A stretch of 64,000 nt of DNA from Burkholderiales bacterium (GTDB lineage Bacteria; Pseudomonadota; Gammaproteobacteria; Burkholderiales; Rhodocyclaceae). Made by a program: the position numbers and the translations under genes. This document shows positions 33,498 through 42,089 of this stretch, one piece after another. The notes beneath the pieces are model-generated. The model was not told the DNA's origin and made no database searches. It saw nothing but the letters and a program-made list of their open reading frames with translations. The stretch's first letter is position 1. Each line of letters opens with the position of its first letter. The stretch lies in the NCBI GenBank assembly GCA_038203745.1, contig JBBRDR010000001.1, positions 12,357-76,356 of the forward strand, given 5' to 3'.

Positions 33498-34376
33498 ATG
33501 GAACTTGTATTTCGCATCATTGGAATTGTTACTCCGGTACTGATCATTTCAGTCATCGGTTACGCTTACGGACGTCTCCGTCGGCCGGACATGACGTGGA
33601 TTAACCGTCTGTGCACCGACTTGTTATTCCCCATGCTGATTTTCACAGCCATGGTTTCCAGAGATTTCCACATTTTGGAGTATCTGCCACTAATCGGTGG
33701 TGGCCTGATTGTGATGTTTGGTTCCGGGCTCATAGCCTGGGGAGCGGCAAAAATTCTGGGTTATAACCCGCATGCCTTTATTCCCCCCATGATGTTCACT
33801 AATGTGGCGAATATGGGATTGCCGCTCACCTTGTTTGCATTCGGCGAATCGATGGTGCCTGCTGCCGTCGCCTTGTTCATGACTTTCAGCCTGTTTCAAT
33901 TTACGTTGGGAATACGGATTTGTGATCCCAAAGGCAGTATCAGCGGGATTCTCAAAGGGCCAATGCTGTGGGCCATGATCATTGGCGTGCTGGGTAGCCT
34001 GGTCGGCCTGTCATTACCCCAATGGTTGGCGACAAGCACCAAGATGCTGGGTGACACGGCCATTCCGCTGGGTTTGTTTACGCTAGGGGTGGGCTTTGCG
34101 AGTTTCAAGGTAGAGCGCTGGAATATCGGTATTGTTGGAGCCTTGCTCTGCCCGATATCGGGTTTGCTTATCGCTTGGCCCTTGGTCAAAATTATGCCGC
34201 TGACCGAGCCAATGAAACAACTCTTGCTGCTCTATGCGGCCTTGCCGCCAGCCGTAATGACCTATATCTTTGCAGAGCAGTACAAGCAGGATCCGGGACT
34301 GGTCTCAGCAATCGTGGTTGCCGGGAACATTGCTTCTTTGGCTTTTATTCCGTTCGCTCTGTATCTGGCTTTTTAA
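33498..34376 (+). CDS. AEC (auxin efflux carrier) family membrane transporter
   Basis: About ten TM segments with FTNVANMGLPL, LGDTAIPLGLFTLG and AALPPAV motifs. Confidence 0.88.
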   Translation: MELVFRIIGIVTPVLIISVIGYAYGRLRRPDMTWINRLCTDLLFPMLIFTAMVSRDFHILEYLPLIGGGLIVMFGSGLIAWGAAKILGYNPHAFIPPMMFTNVANMGLPLTLFAFGESMVPAAVALFMTFSLFQFTLGIRICDPKGSISGILKGPMLWAMIIGVLGSLVGLSLPQWLATSTKMLGDTAIPLGLFTLGVGFASFKVERWNIGIVGALLCPISGLLIAWPLVKIMPLTEPMKQLLLLYAALPPAVMTYIFAEQYKQDPGLVSAIVVAGNIASLAFIPFALYLAF

Positions 34377-34401
34377 GCCCCCCGGAATTATTGTTTGATA
34401 T

Positions 34402-34606
34402 GAAAACCGTACATTGCGGCGCACTGGTATTCCGGAAAGCTTGTTCAAGCTAAGAAACGAACTGTGTCTCAGATCGACCCATTGGAGACAGTCGAGGAGA
34501 GTGGAAGCAGACCTTGGCCTGGAACCCTCAAAAATAGAAAGCTGCCATTCGTTATGCCTTGGTGCTGTTCTCGTCTGGAAGGCGGCTATGCAGCGTTTTC
34601 GCCATT
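34402..34606 (-). repeat. Left degenerate modular repeat unit (five AAYG-type cores)
   Basis: Minus-strand cores start at 34606 (AATGGCG..CGCTGCATAGCCG), 34549 (AATGGCAGCTTT), 34515 (AAGGTCTGCTT), 34492 (ACTGTCTCCAATGGGTCGATCTGAGAC) and 34415 (AATGTACGGTTTT). Confidence 0.6.
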
Positions 34607-34691
34607 GGCATCTCGTGGGCATGAGATCTGAGCGGAGTGTTATCGTGTAGACTGGAACATTCCGACGGAATTCAGCATCAGGGGGAAAGAA

Positions 34692-36410
34692 TTGGACAAG
34701 ATAACAAAATCTCTGCTGGACACATTTGCAGGCCAATTTGAGCTGGAGAAGCTTGACGAACACGTGCAATTCGAACACTTCGCAAACTACGCAATCATCT
34801 CCAAACTCAATAGGTCAACATTCGACCTTGATGACATTCACGTTGGCAGCGGTGGCGACTGTGCAATCGACGGGATTTGTCTCGTCGTAAATGGAAAGAT
34901 TATTACTGACGCGGATGAACTGCGTGAAATTGTTGAGGGGCCTCAACATCTCGATGCTGACGTTATCTTTATCCAGGCAAAAACCACTTCATCATTTAGT
35001 GGGTCAGATATTGGATCGTTCATTCATGGAGTAAAGGACTTTCTTTCCGATACGCCAAAACTTGTTCAGAACCGCAAGATAAAAGAGGCAAGGTTTCTGT
35101 GGGACGCCGTAATATCAATGTCGTCCTACATGGTGGAGCGCCGCCCTCACTGCAAGCTGTTCTATGTCTGCACGGGAAAATGGATTAGTGACCAAAACCT
35201 ACAGGCGATCATTGACAGCGGGAAGAAGGAGATCGAATCTACTGGTTTATTCGATGATGTAGTCGTATCGCCCAACGGGGCGAACGAGATTCAGAAGCTA
35301 TATCACGAGACCAAGAACAAGCTTTCGACCACAATAACGTTCGTAAGCAGAATAACCCTTCCGGATATTGAAGGGGTCAAAGAGGCATACTTGGGGATTG
35401 TGCCTTTCCAAGAGTTCATCAAGTTAATACAAGATGAAAACCAAACAATTCACAGCATATTCGATGACAACGTTAGGGATTTCCAAGGGGAAAACTTTGT
35501 CAACAGAAAAATAAAGGAAACGCTGCTTCAACGAAAGTTTGACCTCTTTTGCTTACTAAATAATGGTGTAACAGTAGTTGCTTCGTCACTGACCCCAGCC
35601 GGAAACCGTTTCACCTTGCGAGACTATCAGGTTGTCAATGGTTGCCAGACTAGCAATGTTCTACACGAATGTCAGGGTATCGACGGGGTCGAGGCTGTTA
35701 ACGTACCTCTCAGAATCATTGTCACGGAAAGTGACGATATCAAGACAGAGATTACGCTCGCCACAAATAGCCAGACAGAGGTTAGGACGGAACAACTTGA
35801 GGCGCTCAGCGTGTTTCAGAAGCGCCTTGAACTTTATTATGCTGCTGAAAAAAACTCTATCACTCTCTTCTACGAACGACGCTCCCAACAGTACAACGCT
35901 CTCCCAAGTATAAAGCGGACACAGATTATTACGATTCCGATCCAGATCAAGTCGTTTGCGTCGACGTTCTTGCAGTCTCCGCATTTAGTATCTGGTTACT
36001 ACGGCACGATCGTAAATCGTTTTAAAGGACAGATATTTGCCGACGATCACAAGTTCTTACCCTATTACGTCAGCGCCCTTTGCTACTTCAGAATTGAGCA
36101 GTTTTTTAGAAGCGGCGAATTATCGTCTGACTTTAAGAAAGCACGCTTTCATTTAATGATGGTTGTGAAATTGCTTGCGATGCGCGGTGTGGAGTTACAG
36201 CTCAATAGCAATAAAATTGAACAGTTTTGCGAGAGTTTCAAGAAGACTCTTCTTGACGAAAAAGAGGCTCTTGCCCTGTATCTGCAAGCGAGCCAACTCT
36301 ATGAAAAGTCAGGGCTCGACATGACTAAGAGGCAATACAAGTCCGAATCAGAAACTGAAATGCTTGTGAATGCGGTGATGATGTTCCTAAAGAGCGAGGT
36401 GAATCCTTAA
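34692..36410 (+). CDS. AIPR family (abortive infection phage resistance) protein
   Basis: IFDDNVRDFQG, LNNGVTVV, VVNGCQTS and ATNSQ core; N-terminal GDCAIDG...IQAK nuclease-like motif; TTG start with purine-rich RBS. Confidence 0.88.
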   Translation: MDKITKSLLDTFAGQFELEKLDEHVQFEHFANYAIISKLNRSTFDLDDIHVGSGGDCAIDGICLVVNGKIITDADELREIVEGPQHLDADVIFIQAKTTSSFSGSDIGSFIHGVKDFLSDTPKLVQNRKIKEARFLWDAVISMSSYMVERRPHCKLFYVCTGKWISDQNLQAIIDSGKKEIESTGLFDDVVVSPNGANEIQKLYHETKNKLSTTITFVSRITLPDIEGVKEAYLGIVPFQEFIKLIQDENQTIHSIFDDNVRDFQGENFVNRKIKETLLQRKFDLFCLLNNGVTVVASSLTPAGNRFTLRDYQVVNGCQTSNVLHECQGIDGVEAVNVPLRIIVTESDDIKTEITLATNSQTEVRTEQLEALSVFQKRLELYYAAEKNSITLFYERRSQQYNALPSIKRTQIITIPIQIKSFASTFLQSPHLVSGYYGTIVNRFKGQIFADDHKFLPYYVSALCYFRIEQFFRSGELSSDFKKARFHLMMVVKLLAMRGVELQLNSNKIEQFCESFKKTLLDEKEALALYLQASQLYEKSGLDMTKRQYKSESETEMLVNAVMMFLKSEVNP

Positions 36411-36479
36411 GAGGGCGCCAACGCCGATCACATAGCCCAACCCAAGCCGCAAGACTAACCTTTCATTTCAGATTTCGTG

Positions 36480-36505
36480 ACCGTCAGCTTTGCTTGATCT
36501 CTGTC
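36480..36505 (+). repeat. Weak internal copy of the terminal repeat module between the two islet genes
   Basis: ACCGTCAGCTTTGCTTGATCTCTGTC versus AGCGGCAGCTGATGGCCGATCTCGGAC (39774-39800), about 18/27 by eye. Confidence 0.3.
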
Positions 36506-36534
36506 TGACCTCCCAAAACCACCTACTGTAGGTT

Positions 36535-39330
36535 GTGCGCGTGACCGTCGAAACTGAACCCGCTCCGGTCCTTGACCCAAAGCAACTGACCCGTATCGAG
36601 TCAGTTCATCGTGGGTTCATGTACCAGCATTTGTACGCAACGGGCTGCCTCCTCACAGCTTATGGGCACGTACTGTCTGTTCGCGTTGAAAGAGACGAAG
36701 ACATCGAGGTCGTTGTGGAAGGGGCGGTCAACTATATCCAGGTCAAAACGCGATCTAGTCCCCTTGCCTATGGCGACATAGAAGGAGCGCTGGAACGCTT
36801 CAAAACCCTCGGCGATGCCCATCGCGCCGGGCAACGCACCGGCGAGGCGCGGTTTGTCTTCGTCTCCAACGCAACTCCGTCGGACGCCCTGCTCCAGAAG
36901 CTCAACTCTGTGCCGCTGCCGCCCGATGTTTCGCTTGTTTGGCCGCAAGGTATTCTCGGACCGGCTGTCGATGGCCTCCCGGCGGCATGGCCAGACATAC
37001 CTGCTGCGGTTGCCTGGTGCACGAAAGCCGCAGAAAAGCTGCCCCTCAGATTCATTGCCTCGGAATCGCTAGTCTGGAAAATCGCCGCGCATGCCACCCT
37101 CGCGGCTAGTGGGACAGCCCCTTACCAGGACCACAGTTTTCAGGTCAGCGAACTGCCGACCCTCTTCGAGCAAATTCTTATCCAACTGCAGGAGTTCCCG
37201 GAACCACTGCAGCACTATCGCCCGCTGCAAGACGAACCTCCGCTTGAATCCAATGCGCATTTGAGGATTGTCTCCGGATTCTCAGGGGCGGGAAAAACTT
37301 CATGGGCTGCGCAATCGGCAGCGCACGCGGCTAATAGCTGCGTCTATTACGATGCGGCCGACACGCCACCCGCCGCACTGGCGTCGGCACTCGTCCGCGA
37401 AAGCGCAGCGCAGTTGCGATCGGCAACGTTGCCGTTAGAGCGCGTCCTTGCGCACGGCGCCACGGGACTTCAGTCGCTGCGCGCACTCGACGAAGCTTTG
37501 AGTGGTTGGGCACGGCCGCCAATTCTGGTGATCGATAATGCCCACAACCTGCCCGCGGCGGAGCTGCACCAAATCAGCAACGCGACAAAGCATATCCGGC
37601 TGGTACTTCTAAGTCATCCTGCTGCGATGATCGCAGAGCTGGAAGCTCTTACCGGGGCAAGCCGTGAGGAACTTAAGGGCTGGTCCGTGGAAGATGTCGC
37701 TGCGGAAACGACTGCGCTTGGTTGCCGCGGCCCACTTGCAGTAATGGACCGACTTCGCGCGCTGACGAGCGGTTATCCCCTGTTTGTCCAGGGTGCAGCG
37801 CATCTGGCGGCCCTTGAATACGCGGGTGATCTGGACACGTTTTGTTCGTCGCTTGAACACGGCACCCACGGGACCGCAACACCGCAGGAAACAATTTTGG
37901 CTCGGGTCTTCGATGCCCTTGAGCAGCCGGTGCGTCAAGCCGCAGGCCTGCTCAGTCTCGCGGATTTTTCTCTCAACCGCATTGAAGCTGCACAATTGCT
38001 GCTCGATTGCATGGGCCTTGAGGAGGCGTCAGCGTCCGGAATACTGCGCCAATTGCGGACGCGTGGCCTGCTGCAATTTTCGATGGGGGGGCGCGTTCGA
38101 CTCCATGATGCGCTACACATATTGGGTATGTCATATTTGCAGTCTCAAGGAACCGAACCCGCTAGGAAAGGGATGGAGTCCCTCCGCAGAATCGTTTTCA
38201 AATCACTTACCGAAGAACGAGATGTATCCAGATTAGGGGCGTTCGCACGCTTGCTCGTCTCATTAAATGACCTCGAACCACTCATCGAATTGATCGGTGA
38301 GGAGCTTTTTCACGAGCTAGGGGTAATCCCGGAAGTGATTGCTGCCCTGGAGCGCGCTCTCGCCGCGGGCCAATTGACTCCGGAACAACAATTCTGGGCG
38401 CATGACGGGCTTATCTTCGCAGCAATGAAGCATGGGGGTGGCCAGGCGGCATCGGAAAAAGCCAAACAATCGCTTGAGGCAATGGAAAGGTTGCGCGCCG
38501 AAGGTGCGCTGACGACCCGCCACGAGGCTTCGCTGTGGATGAAACGTATGCTCTACGAGGCGGAGCATCGCAACGCGGAAGGCGTGATGAATGCCCTTGG
38601 GAAAGTCCAGGCGGTCATACCGAAGGACAGAGCACATCTTCGAATCGCCAATTACAACGCGGCTCACGCGCTGTTCAAGCTGGGTAAGCACGAGCATGCG
38701 GAATCGATCGCGCAGGAGCTTGTCCCGGAATACTACGAGTTGCTTGGAATTGACCCGTCAGACGTTCTGGGTGTGACACAAAGCAAGCTTGCAGAGAAGC
38801 TCCGCGAACAAGATGCCGATAGTCAGGACATCAAGCACCTAGCCGATACGCTTGAATTGCTTGCTATGGCGCAGCGGGAGCAAGGGAATCGAAAATCTCT
38901 AGCGCGCGTTCACGCAATGCGATTCTATGAACTTGCTATGGCAGTGGATTCCGTGGTTCGAACCGGCCTTGATTTAGTCGATGACTTCGTCTGGATTAAC
39001 GACTTTGCCGGGGCGCGCCAAGTGATGGAAGATCATGTTCTCCCATATGTGCGGAATTACAAGCTGACCTCGAAATTGCTCGATGCACGCAGTCTGTATG
39101 CCATCGTTTTAGGTTATTCCGGGCACTTCGACGAGGCGGAACGGGAAATGCAACGTATTGCTCCGATAATCAGCGATGCCCCGCAAGAAATGCAAGAGCA
39201 ATTTGCGAGACAGAATGCTCTGATTGCCGAGATGCGCGTCAATGGAGTGCCGCGGCAGCGGCAGTTGCCGGGAGGAAAGCCCGCGTGCGTCTGCTCCAGC
39301 AAGAAAGGCCGGGAAGGTGGGACGCAATGA
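36535..39330 (+). CDS. Cap4/Mrr-like nuclease - STAND NTPase - TPR protein (Avs/NLR-like)
   Basis: HRGFMYQ..DEDI..YIQVKT (PD-(D/E)xK type), Walker A GFSGAGKTS, Walker B ILVIDNAH, GYPL, winged-helix RLHDAL and a helical repeat C-terminus. Confidence 0.8.
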   Translation: MRVTVETEPAPVLDPKQLTRIESVHRGFMYQHLYATGCLLTAYGHVLSVRVERDEDIEVVVEGAVNYIQVKTRSSPLAYGDIEGALERFKTLGDAHRAGQRTGEARFVFVSNATPSDALLQKLNSVPLPPDVSLVWPQGILGPAVDGLPAAWPDIPAAVAWCTKAAEKLPLRFIASESLVWKIAAHATLAASGTAPYQDHSFQVSELPTLFEQILIQLQEFPEPLQHYRPLQDEPPLESNAHLRIVSGFSGAGKTSWAAQSAAHAANSCVYYDAADTPPAALASALVRESAAQLRSATLPLERVLAHGATGLQSLRALDEALSGWARPPILVIDNAHNLPAAELHQISNATKHIRLVLLSHPAAMIAELEALTGASREELKGWSVEDVAAETTALGCRGPLAVMDRLRALTSGYPLFVQGAAHLAALEYAGDLDTFCSSLEHGTHGTATPQETILARVFDALEQPVRQAAGLLSLADFSLNRIEAAQLLLDCMGLEEASASGILRQLRTRGLLQFSMGGRVRLHDALHILGMSYLQSQGTEPARKGMESLRRIVFKSLTEERDVSRLGAFARLLVSLNDLEPLIELIGEELFHELGVIPEVIAALERALAAGQLTPEQQFWAHDGLIFAAMKHGGGQAASEKAKQSLEAMERLRAEGALTTRHEASLWMKRMLYEAEHRNAEGVMNALGKVQAVIPKDRAHLRIANYNAAHALFKLGKHEHAESIAQELVPEYYELLGIDPSDVLGVTQSKLAEKLREQDADSQDIKHLADTLELLAMAQREQGNRKSLARVHAMRFYELAMAVDSVVRTGLDLVDDFVWINDFAGARQVMEDHVLPYVRNYKLTSKLLDARSLYAIVLGYSGHFDEAEREMQRIAPIISDAPQEMQEQFARQNALIAEMRVNGVPRQRQLPGGKPACVCSSKKGREGGTQ

Positions 39331-39385
39331 CCCGTGACCCTGTGGCTCAGGTCGAAAGTTCAAGAAGTACCACGGCGCGAATTGA
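39314..39385 (+). pseudogene. Decayed SEC-C metal-binding tail of the STAND gene
   Basis: The +1 frame reads KVGRNDP*PCGSGRKFKKYHGAN*, against the SEC-C consensus [21 protein letters not shown]. Confidence 0.85.
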
Positions 39386-39513
39386 GTCCGCGTGGCTTTT
39401 CTCTTTCAGCGCATCGATCGCGTCAGATAGCTCGGCGATACCATATCGATTTCATGGAGAGGTACGGCTTATTCGGAAGCTCCAAGTAGTCGTTTGAGGC
39501 GATTCTCGCGCCT

Positions 39514-39908
39514 AAAGTCGCTTATCTGCACTTTGCGGCCGTTGATATATCAGTGCTTCAACTACCGGATTGGCCGACGGGCTGTCGGTGAGTAATCGGT
39601 TTGTATGACTGCTCGACAGCAAGCCGTCGTTCAGGGCCGGGCAAATCCATGCCAGCCAATGACAGCAGTCGCTGCGTAGCCGAAGTTAAACCAAAACAAA
39701 TCGGCGGCGCCGATTGAATGACCGTTATGGAGAACGACCGCACGTTGAGCGGCCGGTTTGGAGAAGAAACCCGAGCGGCAGCTGATGGCCGATCTCGGAC
39801 AAATCGTATCACTAAAATCCTAAAGACGATGACATTGTGCGTCGCACAATGCGCATCAATTGGGGATTACGGATAGGGGTTTCCCGGTGATCAACTGCAG
39901 CTTTCGAA
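39514..39908 (+). repeat. Right degenerate modular repeat array
   Basis: Plus-strand cores at 39560, 39604, 39658, 39717, 39733, 39748, 39774, 39848 and 39893 (AACTGCAGCTTTCG, abutting the ubiJ stop); one minus-strand copy at 39543-39514. Confidence 0.6.
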
Positions 39909-39909
39909 C

Positions 39910-40479
39910 TCAGCCTTTGAGAAGTGCTATCCGGCTTTCCAGTTGCGTCAGCGTTGCCTGCAGGCATTCGACGTCAGCGCAAAAAGAAGACACATCGCGA
40001 CGGCGGGCAATGGTCGGATTTTCTTCAGTGAAATATTCAGCCAGATTCAGCGCCAGATTGCTGGCCTGTTGTATTTGCCATGTAGCCAGCTGCTTGCCGC
40101 CCTCAACTAGGCGCCGTGCAGCGATGTCGCCAACCAGAATGGAAAGGTCGCTTTCAGCATCCCAGCGTAGATTGTGGAAAATAAAGCCCAGAGTCTCCGC
40201 CAGTTCAGCCGAGCCGCTAATGTGTGCGGAGGCCATGAGCGAAGTGCGATCAGTCAGCGCGCGCAGGGGTGCATCGGCAGGCAGGGTGATGCAAACAGCA
40301 GCAACAGCATTTTTGTCGCCGGGTATGAAAAGCCCGTCGCGGGTGATCTCCAGCGGCAGATTCAGCGCGCCGACTACAAGGCGCGCTGTTTGTCCGGCAA
40401 AAGGTTTGAGACGGTCGCGCGGCCAGACTTCAGACGTCAGAAGATGATTGACGAATCCCAGTGTCGCATCGACCAGCAT
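39910..40479 (-). CDS. ubiJ: Ubiquinone biosynthesis accessory factor (SCP2 domain)
   Basis: NHLL...RLKPFAG, ISGSAELA...LRWDAESDLS..GDIAA and EYFTEE; downstream of ubiE. Confidence 0.88.
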   Translation of the reverse strand: MLVDATLGFVNHLLTSEVWPRDRLKPFAGQTARLVVGALNLPLEITRDGLFIPGDKNAVAAVCITLPADAPLRALTDRTSLMASAHISGSAELAETLGFIFHNLRWDAESDLSILVGDIAARRLVEGGKQLATWQIQQASNLALNLAEYFTEENPTIARRRDVSSFCADVECLQATLTQLESRIALLKG

Positions 40480-40485
40480 CAGTAA

Positions 40486-41343
40486 TCAACCCAGTTGCTG
40501 GATTCCGGCGATAACCCAACCCTTGTTGCCTTCGGCCGGTTTGCTCAGATTCCAGACTTCATTAAACGGAACCGCTGCCGCGCCGGTCTCCTCGCGAATC
40601 ATGCCGCTAAAGTTTACGCTGGCGATATGGCGGTTGGCTTCGGTCGTGATTTCGAGAAGTTCGGCGTTGAGCGTGACGACATCCGTTTGCTGAGGCGCTG
40701 TGCCACGTTCATCCATTTGCATTTTGATTTCAGCAAACAGTTCCGGACTGGTAAATTCGCGAATATCGGCAAGATCCATGGCGTCATTAGCGGCTTGCAA
40801 GCGAACGAAATTGAGCTTGGCGACGCGCAGGAAAGCTGTGGTATCGAAGCCTGCGGGCATTTGTTGCGCAAAAGGTTCCGCAGGAGCGGCAGAACCAAAC
40901 TGGGCGTTCTGAACCGGCTGACCCATGGCTGGATTGCCGGCGCCTGCGTACTGCATCGGATCGTTGGCTTGTCCGGCCGGCGTTTTGCGGCCGAACAATA
41001 ACTTGAAAACAAAAACGGCTGCGAAGGCCAGCAGGGCAATCATCAGAATGTTGGCCATGCCCTCACCCATACCAAAATGCGAAAGAAGCGCAGCAATGCC
41101 AAGGCCGGCAGCAAGACCGGCAATCGGCCCCATCCAGTTACGTTTGGGGGTTGCCGCCGCGGCACCCGCAGGCGCGGTTGGTGTGGCGGGAGCCGCTTGT
41201 TGCGTAGGGGCAGGTCTCGGAGAAACGGCCTGGCGTTGCATGCCAAAAGATTTTCCGCCGCCAAAGCGTGCTGCCTCAGCTTCACCTACGCTCAAGCCAA
41301 GTGCCAAGATTGCAACAAAAACAGACATCAGAATTTTGTTCAT
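40486..41343 (-). CDS. Tim44 domain-containing protein
   Basis: ARFGGGKSFG after a signal peptide, GLAAGLG...LLSHFG, and a Tim44 core (F..LQAAND...WVIAGIQQ). Confidence 0.9.
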   Translation of the reverse strand: MNKILMSVFVAILALGLSVGEAEAARFGGGKSFGMQRQAVSPRPAPTQQAAPATPTAPAGAAAATPKRNWMGPIAGLAAGLGIAALLSHFGMGEGMANILMIALLAFAAVFVFKLLFGRKTPAGQANDPMQYAGAGNPAMGQPVQNAQFGSAAPAEPFAQQMPAGFDTTAFLRVAKLNFVRLQAANDAMDLADIREFTSPELFAEIKMQMDERGTAPQQTDVVTLNAELLEITTEANRHIASVNFSGMIREETGAAAVPFNEVWNLSKPAEGNKGWVIAGIQQLG

Positions 41344-41354
41344 TGGTGATTCCT

Positions 41355-42089
41355 TCAGAATTTAAAACCACGGTGTAATGCAACAACCCCAAGCGTCAGG
41401 TTGAAGTATTCGACTTTCTCCAGACCGGCTTGTTCCATCAATATTTTTAATGCGTCCTGATCCGGATGGACGCGTATTGATTCGGCAAGATAACGATAGC
41501 TGGCTTCATCTTTGGTGATGAACTCGCCAATGCGCGGGATGATCTTGAACGAGTAAAAATCATAAACAGGCGCCAGCGGCTTCCACACTTGTGAGAACTC
41601 CAGAACCAGAACGCACCCGCCGGGACGCAGCACGCGCTTCATCTCGGCAAGAGCGGCATCCTTGTGGGTCATGTTGCGCAGACCGAAGGCGACGGTAACA
41701 CAATCAAAATAATCATCAGGGAAGGGCAGTCTCTCGGCGTCACACTGGGCGACCGGGATCATGAACCCCTTGTCACAGAGTCTGTCCCGGCCATTGGTCA
41801 GCATGGCGTTGTTGATGTCAGTCAGCCAGACCTGCCCGCTCTTGCCGACCTTGCGCGCAAATGCCAGCGAGAGATCGCCCGTGCCGCCGGCAACATCAAG
41901 CACCCGCGAACCTTCGCGAACGCCGCTGCGGGCAATGGTAAATGCCTTCCAAAGCCGGTGCATGCCGCCGGACATGAGGTCATTCATCAGGTCGTAGCGT
42001 TGGGCAACCGAAGTGAAGACCTCGGCTACGCGGCGTGCTTTTTCAGCCTCGGCAACCTGTTCAAATCCGAAATGTGTTTTGTCATTCAT
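41355..42089 (-). CDS. ubiE: Ubiquinone/menaquinone C-methyltransferase
   Basis: [31 protein letters not shown] and YRYLAESI. Confidence 0.97.

What the first reader, a model, noticed from the sequence alone, without database searches (positions are those of the whole stretch)
36535..39330. Compact NLR-like protein: Cap4/Mrr-type nuclease, STAND ATPase, winged helix and TPR sensor in 931 aa
Seen: GFxYQ, (E)DI and QVK nuclease motifs; Walker A at about 37276-37302; Walker B IDNAH; GxP (GYPL); an MHD-like LHD; and a helical repeat C-terminal third. Established: characterised Avs3/Avs4 share the nuclease-STAND-TPR logic but exceed 1,500 aa and recognise terminase or portal. Inference: a shorter, probably uncharacterised Avs-like clade, ancestrally SEC-C-tailed, that may sense a different phage trigger.
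Basis: partly seen in the sequence, partly recalled or inferred. Interest (0 to 1): 0.78.

Follow-up and report, generated by a model that had tools for sequence, protein, structure and literature searches.

The report
Compact nuclease-armed bacterial NLR-like defence protein
This gene encodes a 931-residue bacterial NLR-like (antiviral STAND) protein with a DNA-cutting domain, an ATP switch and a short helical-repeat sensor; it belongs to a large, mobile, still unnamed family, sits in a small inserted defence islet, and has recently lost the family's zinc-finger tail.

Summary
The domain order is a Cap4/HamA/LmuA-type PD-(D/E)xK nuclease, a STAND NTPase with a winged helix, and a TPR-like sensor of about 365 aa. 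The best PDB fold match of the whole model is SeAvs3.

No Avs/AVAST model in PADLOC v2 matches it or four diverse relatives, and no NCBIfam or PDB sequence does either. It therefore belongs to a separate family, which I could not find named.

- **Family size:** 402 representatives at 50% identity (E <= 1e-30), nearly all 880-975 aa, in Alpha-, Beta- and Gammaproteobacteria, on plasmids, and in 48 of 5,426 complete E. coli genomes.
- **Context:** neighbours vary (AbiU, Lamassu, Gabija, Wadjet, RADAR, type I R-M, ICEs, a Tn7-like element) and no partner gene is conserved, so it looks like a single-gene system.
- **In the window:** it lies with AbiU in a 5.5-kb insertion that same-genus relatives lack.
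- **SEC-C tail:** 57% of the family has one. In the window it is destroyed by an 11-bp deletion plus two cysteine-codon hits, while the body stays under purifying selection.

Defence activity and trigger are untested. By sequence look-up, the scan had not noted this family on DNA of any other genome.

The parts
36535..39330 (+). Whole gene: 931-aa Cap4-nuclease / STAND NTPase / TPR-like protein (P0001)
   Evidence: ORF list and translation. The family alignment has 56% mean column identity. dN/dS against the closest relative is 0.22.
36574..37194 (+). Cap4/HamA/LmuA-type PD-(D/E)xK nuclease domain (residues 14-220). Motifs: GFMYQH at 36613-36630, ERDEDIE at 36688-36708, QVK at 36739-36747.
   Evidence: PADLOC hits to LmuA (6e-7) and HamA (7e-6). 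Pfam Cap4_nuclease in 11 of 25 members. The Foldseek search with the domain model hits HamA 8zue, LmuA 9nxx/9ux7, Cap4 6wam/6vm5 and SeAvs3 8dgc, with TM about 0.5.
37255..37629 (+). STAND nucleotide-binding domain (residues 241-365). Walker A GFSGAGKT at 37276-37299; Walker B LVIDN at 37522-37539, with an invariant D334-N335.
   Evidence: Pfam AAA_22 at 5e-9 and AAA_16; weak NCBIfam hit to the MalT NTPase; invariant columns.
37630..37878 (+). Helical domain (ARC1-like, residues 366-448) with the GxP motif GYP at 37771-37779
   Evidence: AF2 helices 364-443. G413, P415 and L416 are invariant.
37882..38145 (+). Winged-helix domain (residues 450-537) with the MHD-like LHD at 38101-38109
   Evidence: AF2 gives helix-helix-beta-hairpin-helix at 482-537. 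H524 and D525 are invariant.
38152..39243 (+). TPR-like alpha-helical repeat sensor (residues 540-903, 18 helices)
   Evidence: AF2 secondary structure. Weak TPR Pfam hits in the window protein and in relatives. Fold matches include the PH0952 TPR sensor, MalT and consensus TPR proteins.
39244..39385 (+). Decayed linker and SEC-C tail. There is an 11-bp deletion after 39274, and the ORF now stops at 39328-39330. The SEC-C remnant lies in the next frame at 39314-39385, with TGC>TGA at 39335-39337 and TGC>TAC at 39368-39370.
   Evidence: Three-frame translations. DNA alignment to L001, which encodes P0004 (94% identical, intact SEC-C). In the tail 13 of 111 nt differ, against about 4.8% in the gene body.
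34692..36410 (+). Neighbouring AbiU/AIPR abortive-infection gene; an independent system in the same islet
   Evidence: PADLOC AbiU at 6.8e-132 and Pfam AIPR at 1e-42. It is not a neighbour in any of 29 other loci of the family.
34377..39909 (.). 5.5-kb defence islet inserted between a membrane-transporter gene and ubiJ
   Evidence: In same-genus genomes G007 and G016 the two flanking genes lie 585 bp and 22 bp apart. Homology to the window stops at 34374 and resumes at 39910. None of 40 related genomes has the STAND gene.

Best explanation
The gene encodes a stand-alone antiviral STAND (Avs-like, bacterial NLR-like) immune protein from a distinct, compact family that I could not find named.

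Proposed mechanism, by analogy with SeAvs3, EcAvs4 and SeAvs7:
1. In the resting cell the monomer is ADP-bound and auto-inhibited.
2. The roughly 365-aa TPR-like sensor binds a phage-derived ligand, most likely a protein.
3. This frees the NTPase-WHD switch (Walker A K254, GxP, LHD) to exchange ADP for ATP and to oligomerise.
4. Oligomerisation brings the N-terminal Cap4-type PD-(D/E)xK domains (D54/D56, Q69, K71) together into an active DNA endonuclease.
5. The nuclease degrades DNA and aborts the infection.

Shown here: the domain architecture, motif conservation, fold relationships, family size, mobility, defence-island association, the absence of a conserved partner gene, insertion of the islet, and decay of the SEC-C tail with the gene body intact.

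Inferred: defence activity, ligand-induced oligomerisation, DNA cleavage, and the nature of the trigger.

The lost SEC-C zinc finger is probably accessory, because about 43% of the family, including the whole 898-aa Pseudomonas clade, lacks it.
For: **Architecture and motifs:**

**Fold:** SeAvs3 is the top whole-chain match (E 7.7e-13), followed by PH0952, MalT, NRC2, CED-4, ZAR1-type resistosomes and EfAvs5. The nuclease domain matches HamA, LmuA, Cap4 and the SeAvs3 N-terminus.

**Family:** 1,197 representatives at E <= 1e-3 and 402 at E <= 1e-30, of uniform length.

**Defence and mobile-element neighbourhoods:**
- AbiU in the window.
- RES, AbiC and a relaxase.
- Lamassu inside an ICE.
- Type I R-M plus an integrase.
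- Abi_C, Mrr and an SMC-like gene.
- JetC, LmuA-like, RdrA/B plus an Avs3a-like gene, GajA, GajB-like, MzaC, SoFic and LmuB.
- A Tn7-like transposon beside a Gabija-like pair in E. coli G3/10.
- An IncHI1B plasmid island.
- 54 plasmid records in all.

**Single-gene system:** no neighbour family recurs in more than 4 of 30 loci, and those 4 carry the same element.

**Patchy presence:** 0 of 40 relatives have it, and it sits in an inserted islet.

**Selection:** dN/dS is 0.20-0.28 in each domain.

**Mechanistic precedent:** Lee et al. 2026 (PMC13581612 and its preprint) describe SeAvs7, which has the same Cap4-NTPase-TPR order, is auto-inhibited in the ADP-bound apo state, and forms a target- and ATP-driven tetramer that assembles the Cap4 nuclease.
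Against: - No experiment exists for any member that I could find.
- The sensor is much smaller than those of characterised protein-sensing Avs3, Avs4 and Avs7, so the ligand could be something other than a large phage structural protein.
- The Walker B second residue is an invariant Asn (D334-N335) rather than an acidic residue, and the usual sensor-1 Arg after strand 4 is not evident. The nucleotide cycle may therefore differ from textbook STANDs.
- The window copy has a broken C-terminal tail, so this particular allele could be impaired.
- The AF2 model is a monomer prediction, and the whole-chain TM-scores to Avs3 are low (0.17) because of the size difference.
Confidence: 0.8

Rival explanations
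1. It is a member of an Avs family that has already been named and characterised (one of Avs7-24 or another cluster tested by Lee et al. 2026), so nothing about it is new.
For: The Lee et al. census drew on NCBI nr with Cap4-containing seeds, found 589 clades, and tested about 30 further sensor clusters with a preference for Enterobacteriaceae homologues. This family has E. coli and Klebsiella members.
Against: - No PADLOC v2 model (Avs1-5, PD-lambda-4 and the rest) matches the window protein or four diverse relatives.
- The family profile finds no Avs chain among PDB sequences.
- Neither version of the Lee et al. paper mentions SEC-C or zinc.
- Seven member accessions are absent from the held part of its supplement.
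- Five member accessions are absent from every searchable paper.
- Against this, the supplement was truncated when stored, so the test is incomplete.
Confidence: 0.12
2. The window copy is a decaying pseudogene. Loss of the SEC-C tail inactivated it, and the rest has simply not yet accumulated lesions.
For: There are three independent lesions in the last roughly 110 nt, and divergence there is raised to 11.7% against 4.8% in the body. The gene is absent from all 40 sampled relatives.
Against: - The 2.7-kb body has no stop or frameshift, and dN/dS is 0.22, uniform over the three domains.
- 63 of 148 full-length family representatives naturally lack the tail, with at least 24 gains or losses on the tree, so tail-less proteins persist.
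- All catalytic and switch residues are intact.
Confidence: 0.1
3. It is a guard-type or small-ligand sensor rather than a direct phage-protein receptor. On this view the short MalT/PH0952-like sensor binds a metabolite, a nucleic acid or a host factor that infection perturbs, possibly through SEC-C partners such as the ribosome or SecB.
For: After Avs3, the best fold matches with good coverage are PH0952 (TM 0.56 on the target) and MalT, which are compact STANDs; MalT is regulated by a small ligand. The sensor is only about 365 aa. The SEC-C domain is known to bind SecB and ribosomes (abstract of 10.1101/613315; PMC6620043). SeAvs7 uses host EF-Tu as a structural cofactor.
Against: Every Avs family whose trigger is known binds a phage protein directly. 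The tail is dispensable in many lineages. Nothing here speaks directly to ligand type.
Confidence: 0.15
4. It works as a two-gene system together with the upstream AbiU gene.
For: The two genes are on the same strand, 124 bp apart, and were inserted together in one islet.
Against: AbiU differs in GC content: the window 34001-36000 is 47% GC against about 55% elsewhere. None of 29 other loci of the family has an AbiU or any other conserved neighbour.
Confidence: 0.03

Closest known systems
SeAvs3 (AVAST type 3; PDB 8DGC) and the Avs1-4 families of Gao et al. 2022
   Same: It shares the order N-terminal Cap4-type nuclease, STAND NTPase with WHD, and C-terminal TPR-like sensor, in a single gene found in defence islands. 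SeAvs3 is the best whole-model fold match (E 7.7e-13) and also matches the nuclease domain alone.
   Different: Identity is only 13%. No PADLOC Avs3a or other Avs HMM hit and no profile hit to the 8DGC sequence. The protein is 931 aa against about 2,000. The sensor is about 365 aa rather than more than 1,000, so it is too small to reproduce the Avs3 terminase-binding surface. The family carries a SEC-C zinc-finger tail that characterised Avs proteins are not reported to have.
SeAvs7 (Lee et al. 2026, Nature, PMC13581612)
   Same: It has the same Cap4 nuclease, NTPase and TPR architecture. SeAvs7 provides the mechanistic template of ADP-bound auto-inhibition and target- plus ATP-driven tetramerisation of Cap4 domains. 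It also sets a precedent for a host translation factor (EF-Tu) as a cofactor.
   Different: No SeAvs7 chain appeared in my sequence or fold searches of the PDB, and I do not know whether it was in those copies, so similarity is untested. The reported monomeric SeAvs7-MCP-EF-Tu complex is about 250 kDa, which implies a much larger protein than 931 aa. The trigger of the present family is unknown.
PH0952 (PDB 6MFV) and MalT (PDB 8BOB): compact STAND NTPases with TPR/SUPR sensors
   Same: The size and layout of the NTPase, WHD and short helical-repeat sensor are similar (TM 0.56 and 0.50 on the target). There are weak sequence hits to the MalT NTPase and to PH0952.
   Different: Those proteins have no nuclease effector. 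MalT is a transcription activator with a LuxR-type HTH. The present family has no DNA-binding output domain and lives in defence islands.
Cap4 (CBASS), HamA (Hachiman) and LmuA (Lamassu) nuclease effectors
   Same: They share the PD-(D/E)xK Cap4/DUF4297-type fold and the D...QxK motif.
   Different: In those systems the nuclease is controlled by a SAVED/CARF sensor, a helicase or an SMC-like partner. Here it is fused to a STAND switch.
SecA C-terminal metal-binding domain (SEC-C; also in YecA and YchJ)
   Same: The family consensus [21 protein letters not shown] is near-identical to the SecA MBD peptides in the PDB (E 2e-5). It is likewise placed at the extreme C-terminus after a variable linker.
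   Different: It is attached to an immune NTPase rather than a translocation ATPase. It is degenerate in the window. Similar tails occur on PADLOC's CBASS E2 and PDC-S12 models and in the lactococcal Rugutis defence protein.

Membership tests
STAND NTPase superfamily (NLR-like) | P-loop NBD with Walker A GxxxxGK[ST] and a Walker B aspartate | tested here: met
   GFSGAGKT at 248-255 and LVIDN at 330-335 are invariant in 25 sequences. Pfam AAA_22 and AAA_16 match.
STAND NTPase superfamily (NLR-like) | Helical domain with GxP, followed by a winged-helix domain carrying an MHD-type histidine | tested here: met
   G413-x-P415 and H524-D525 are invariant. The AF2 topology agrees. Fold hits include Avs3, MalT, CED-4, Apaf-1/Dark and plant NLR NB-ARC modules.
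STAND NTPase superfamily (NLR-like) | Second acidic residue of Walker B and a sensor-1 arginine | tested here: inconclusive
   Walker B is followed by an invariant Asn335. Strand 4 ends in (S/C)(H/Q)P rather than the TTR-type motif. The functional meaning is unknown.
Antiviral STAND (Avs) proteins in the broad sense | Tripartite architecture: N-terminal effector, STAND NTPase, C-terminal repeat sensor | tested here: met
Antiviral STAND (Avs) proteins in the broad sense | Enrichment next to known defence systems or on mobile elements | tested here: met
   Seven of eight annotated contexts hold defence or mobile-element genes within 8 kb; the Ramlibacter locus shows none among the Pfam families on record. 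Nine of 11 further loci have a PADLOC hit in a sampled large ORF within 5 kb. The sampling chose the largest ORFs and is not a formal enrichment test.
Antiviral STAND (Avs) proteins in the broad sense | Demonstrated anti-phage protection and activation by a phage-encoded trigger | not testable with these tools
   This needs plaque assays and co-expression screens.
Avs1-Avs5 / AVAST types I-V and PD-lambda-4 (Avs8), as modelled in PADLOC v2 | A significant full-length match to the family HMM | tested here: not met
   No such hit at E <= 0.1 for the window protein, nor at E <= 0.01 for the E. coli, Pseudomonas, Ramlibacter and two metagenomic relatives.
Avs7, Avs10-24 (Lee et al. 2026) | Sequence or structure membership in the published sensor clusters | not tested
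   Models and accession tables were not available. The held supplement is cut inside Table S1.
Cap4 nuclease (Pfam PF14130 / DUF4297-like PD-(D/E)xK) | The Cap4-type fold with acidic residues and a (Q/E)xK catalytic motif | tested here: met
   PF14130 matches 11 of 25 members, best 7e-7; the window protein itself falls below the E <= 0.1 listing limit. PADLOC LmuA/HamA hits. Fold hits to HamA, LmuA and Cap4 at E 9e-6 to 1e-3. D54, D56, E58, Q69 and K71 are conserved.
SEC-C motif (Pfam PF02810) | A C-terminal CxCxSGx(n)C[HC] zinc-binding motif | tested here: not met
   The window protein lacks it. An out-of-frame remnant has the first Cys codon changed to TGA and the third to TAC. The motif is met in 14 of 25 aligned relatives and in 85 of 148 representatives.

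The most novel reading that the evidence does not exclude
The SEC-C zinc finger that is ancestral to this lineage, and present in 57% of the family, may tether the immune sensor to the ribosome or to SecB. These are the known partners of the near-identical SecA metal-binding domain. If so, this compact NLR-like protein would survey nascent or newly made phage proteins, or use a host translation or secretion factor as a co-receptor, much as Avs7 uses EF-Tu. The repeated losses of the tail (at least 24 changes on the tree, including the recent one in this window) would then tune sensitivity or escape phage interference. The same tail on CBASS E2-type and PDC-S12 proteins would point to a general localisation module of bacterial immunity.
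Probability: 0.12. Interest if true: 0.75.

Novelty: new member of a known kind. Interest (0 to 1): 0.45.

Why it matters
Antiviral STAND proteins are the bacterial counterparts of animal and plant NLRs, and each characterised family has revealed a new phage pattern that cells recognise. This family matters for four reasons:
- It is large, mobile, and present in E. coli, Klebsiella and Pseudomonas, including on plasmids and a Tn7-like element.
- It is half the size of the structurally solved nuclease-bearing Avs proteins, which makes it attractive for structural and engineering work.
- It is not covered by PADLOC v2 or NCBIfam, so its members are currently annotated only as "ATP-binding protein" or "SEC-C domain-containing protein". 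Adding it would improve defence-system annotation.
- Its short sensor and SecA-like zinc-finger tail raise a concrete, testable question about what a minimal NLR-like receptor senses, and whether host translation or secretion factors take part.

Tried and rejected
- **Selenocysteine reading.** I considered the TGA at the first Cys of the SEC-C remnant as a selenocysteine codon. I rejected this because the codon lies in a different frame from the ORF after an 11-bp deletion, and a second Cys codon is also mutated.
- **Flanking repeats.** The repeat finder (seed 10) and blastn-short of the two flanks gave only matches of 9 nt or less, at chance level. There is no tRNA in 30-46 kb and no integrase in the islet, so the insertion mechanism is unknown.
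- **Two-gene AbiU-STAND system.** Rejected; see the rival explanations.
- **Transcription regulator of the MalT type.** Rejected because there is no HTH domain, there is an N-terminal nuclease, and the context is defence-related.
- **Looking the family up in Lee et al. 2026.** Only Table S1 was partly held and the Nature version has no held supplements, so this was inconclusive.
- **Promoter and terminator scan of the islet.** It gave no more sites than shuffled sequence.
- **Phage records.** Only two unannotated metagenomic "Bacteriophage sp." contigs carry a relative, so there is no clear prophage association.
Full report
**Observation.**
The window holds a single long ORF at 36535-39330 on the + strand, 931 aa with a GTG start.
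- GFMYQH at residues 27-32
- ERDEDIE at 52-58
- IQVKTR at 68-73
- Walker A GFSGAGKT at 248-255 (nt 37276-37299)
- Walker B LVIDNAH at 330-337
- GYPL at 413-416
- LHD at 523-525

In an alignment of 25 homologues (36-93% identical to the window protein), Q69, K71, R73, the Walker A glycines with K254 and T255, D334-N335, G413, P415, L416 and H524-D525 are invariant. D54, D56 and E58 are at least 90% conserved. This is a real, constrained protein and not a chance pattern.

**Anatomy.**
- Pfam sees only AAA_22/AAA_16 and a weak TPR.
- PADLOC sees only N-terminal LmuA/HamA-type similarity.
- NCBIfam sees only a weak MalT P-loop hit.
- An AlphaFold2 model built on the family alignment is confident (pLDDT 83, pTM 0.66).

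The model resolves these domains:
- an alpha/beta domain, 14-220
- a conserved linker, 221-240
- a P-loop NBD, 241-365
- a helical domain, 366-448
- a winged helix, 450-537, with LHD just after the beta-hairpin
- 18 helices of TPR-like repeats, 540-903
- a disordered tail

Foldseek against the PDB ranks SeAvs3 bound to terminase (8dgc) first at E 7.7e-13. The compact STAND PH0952 (6mfv), MalT, tomato NRC2, CED-4, ZAR1-type resistosomes and EfAvs5 follow.

A separate model of residues 1-225 matches HamA (8zue), LmuA (9nxx, 9ux7), Cap4 (6wam, 6vm5, 6wan) and the SeAvs3 N-terminus, with TM about 0.5. Pfam Cap4_nuclease hits 11 of 25 family members. The effector is therefore a Cap4-type PD-(D/E)xK nuclease rather than Mrr.

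**The SEC-C tail.**
Fourteen of the 25 aligned relatives end in a linker plus KVGRN(D/E)PCPCGSGxKFKKCHG, the SecA-type SEC-C zinc finger. The family profile matches SecA MBD peptides in the PDB at E 2e-5.

The window protein ends early. Translating the next frame gives SPRASAPARKAGKVGRNDP*PCGSGRKFKKYHGAN*. DNA alignment with the 94%-identical intact gene on L001 shows three lesions:
- an 11-bp deletion after window position 39274
- TGC>TGA at 39335-39337, the first Cys
- TGC>TAC at 39368-39370

In the tail 13 of 111 nt differ (11.7%), against about 4.8% over the body. The body itself has no lesion, and dN/dS is 0.22 (0.20-0.28 per domain).

On a tree of 148 full-length representatives built without the tail columns, 85 keep SEC-C. 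The trait needs at least 24 changes on that tree. The window's five nearest relatives all keep it.

**Family and distribution.**
- A word-based search found 46 clusters at 90% identity.
- An exhaustive profile search found 1,197 representatives at 50% identity with E <= 1e-3, and 402 with E <= 1e-30. Nearly all full-length ones are 880-975 aa.
- Named hosts include Ramlibacter, Variovorax, Polaromonas, Paraburkholderia, Massilia, Accumulibacter, Verminephrobacter, Pseudomonas, Sphingopyxis, Azospirillum, Magnetospirillum and Devosia, plus one Krumholzibacteriia MAG (full-length match) and one Thermoanaerobaculia MAG (partial match).
- 54 plasmid records carry a relative: Klebsiella 20, Rhizobium 11, Pseudomonas megaplasmids 7, E. 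coli IncHI1B 2.
- 48 of 5,426 complete E. coli genomes carry a relative.

**Context.**
In the window the gene lies 124 bp downstream of an AbiU/AIPR gene (PADLOC 6.8e-132). Both sit in a 5.5-kb segment, 34377-39909, between a membrane-transporter gene that follows the atp operon and the convergent ubiJ-Tim44-ubiE cluster.

In same-genus genomes the two flanking genes are 585 bp (G007) or 22 bp (G016) apart, and homology to the window stops exactly at the two gene ends. None of 40 related genomes has the STAND gene.

Elsewhere the family sits beside:
- RES, AbiC and a relaxase
- Lamassu inside an ICE
- a methyltransferase and a resolvase
- type I R-M plus an integrase and Mob
- Abi_C, Mrr and an SMC-like ATPase
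- JetC, LmuA-like, RdrA/RdrB plus an Avs3a-like protein, MzaC, SoFic, GajA, GajB-like and LmuB
- a Gabija-like pair, as cargo of a Tn7-like transposon in E. coli G3/10

An all-against-all comparison of ORFs within 5 kb in 30 loci found no neighbour family shared by more than four loci, and those four carry the same Sphingomonadales element. The protein therefore acts alone, and AbiU is an independent neighbour.

**Mechanism.**
By architecture and by the solved Avs3 and Avs7 precedents, the most likely mechanism is as follows:
1. The monomer rests in an ADP-bound, auto-inhibited state.
2. Its TPR-like sensor binds a phage product.
3. It exchanges nucleotide and oligomerises through the NTPase.
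4. This assembles the Cap4 domains into an active DNA endonuclease, which aborts the infection.

None of these steps was tested here. Three features could make the details differ:
- the sensor is only about 365 aa
- Walker B is an invariant D-N
- many members carry a SecA-like zinc finger known to bind SecB and ribosomes

**Comparison and novelty.**
The protein works like an Avs, but it fails the membership test for Avs1-5 and PD-lambda-4 as modelled in PADLOC v2. It has no detectable sequence relationship to any solved Avs.

Lee et al. 2026 (Nature, PMC13581612) catalogued 589 STAND clades and named Avs7-24. Their text does not mention SEC-C or zinc. Member accessions do not appear in the held supplement fragment or in any searchable paper. 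The full tables were unavailable, however, so the family may be one of their unnamed, or even tested, clusters.

I therefore rate it as a new, unnamed and functionally uncharacterised member of a known kind. It is solidly real and useful for annotation, but only moderately surprising. The SEC-C tail is the one feature that could lead somewhere new.

Noticed in passing
window 34692-36410 (+): There is a full-length AbiU/AIPR abortive-infection gene (PADLOC 6.8e-132). Its GC content is lower (47% in 34001-36000 against about 55% around it), which suggests a separate origin from the STAND gene in the same islet.
   Followed up: partly
The repeat finder and blastn-short of the two flanks gave only chance-level matches of 9 nt or less. 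There is no tRNA or integrase either, so how the islet was inserted is unexplained.
   Followed up: yes
E. coli homologue L048:8001-10799, P0022 and P0031 (C-terminal 20-40 residues): The SEC-C tails of family members also match the C-termini of the PADLOC models PDC-S12 and CBASS E2/E1-E2 (E 1e-6 to 1e-3). A lactococcal defence protein, Rugutis, carries a SEC-C motif as well (PMC11381338). SEC-C therefore looks like a recurrent appendage of defence proteins.
   Followed up: partly
L049 (E. coli G3/10 chromosome, NZ_CP060075.1 2514976-2535774): The E. coli family member WP_047400220.1 is cargo of a Tn7-like transposon (TnsABCDE). It lies next to an ATP-dependent nuclease and a UvrD-helicase pair that looks like Gabija.
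   Followed up: no
L028:9615-13721 (-), Neisseriaceae MAG: A 1,368-aa protein matches only the sensor part of the PADLOC Avs3a model (positions 1109-2056). It lies beside RdrA/RdrB-like genes and a member of the present family, so three or more systems share one island.
   Followed up: no
window residues 330-337 and 354-362 of P0001 (nt 37522-37545 and 37594-37620): Walker B is followed by an invariant Asn (D334-N335) instead of a second acidic residue. Strand 4 ends in (S/C)(H/Q)P rather than a sensor-1 Arg motif. This may mean slow or absent ATP hydrolysis in the family.
   Followed up: no
window 39558-39812 (-) and 39386-39909: About 520 bp of islet DNA lie 3' of the STAND gene. They hold only an 84-aa ORF with no Pfam hit. 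A hairpin that looks like the ubiJ terminator is at 39852-39832 (-).
   Followed up: partly
window 39910-42089 (-): The ubiE, Tim44-like and ubiJ (SCP2) genes are not followed by ubiB, in the window or in two same-genus genomes. In all three, ubiJ converges on the transporter gene instead.
   Followed up: partly
Candidatus Accumulibacter regalis records (supplement passage): Family member EXI90534.1 is 20 accession numbers away from EXI90554.1, a STAND seed in Table S1 of Lee et al. This suggests that the two STAND genes lie in the same genomic neighbourhood.
   Followed up: no
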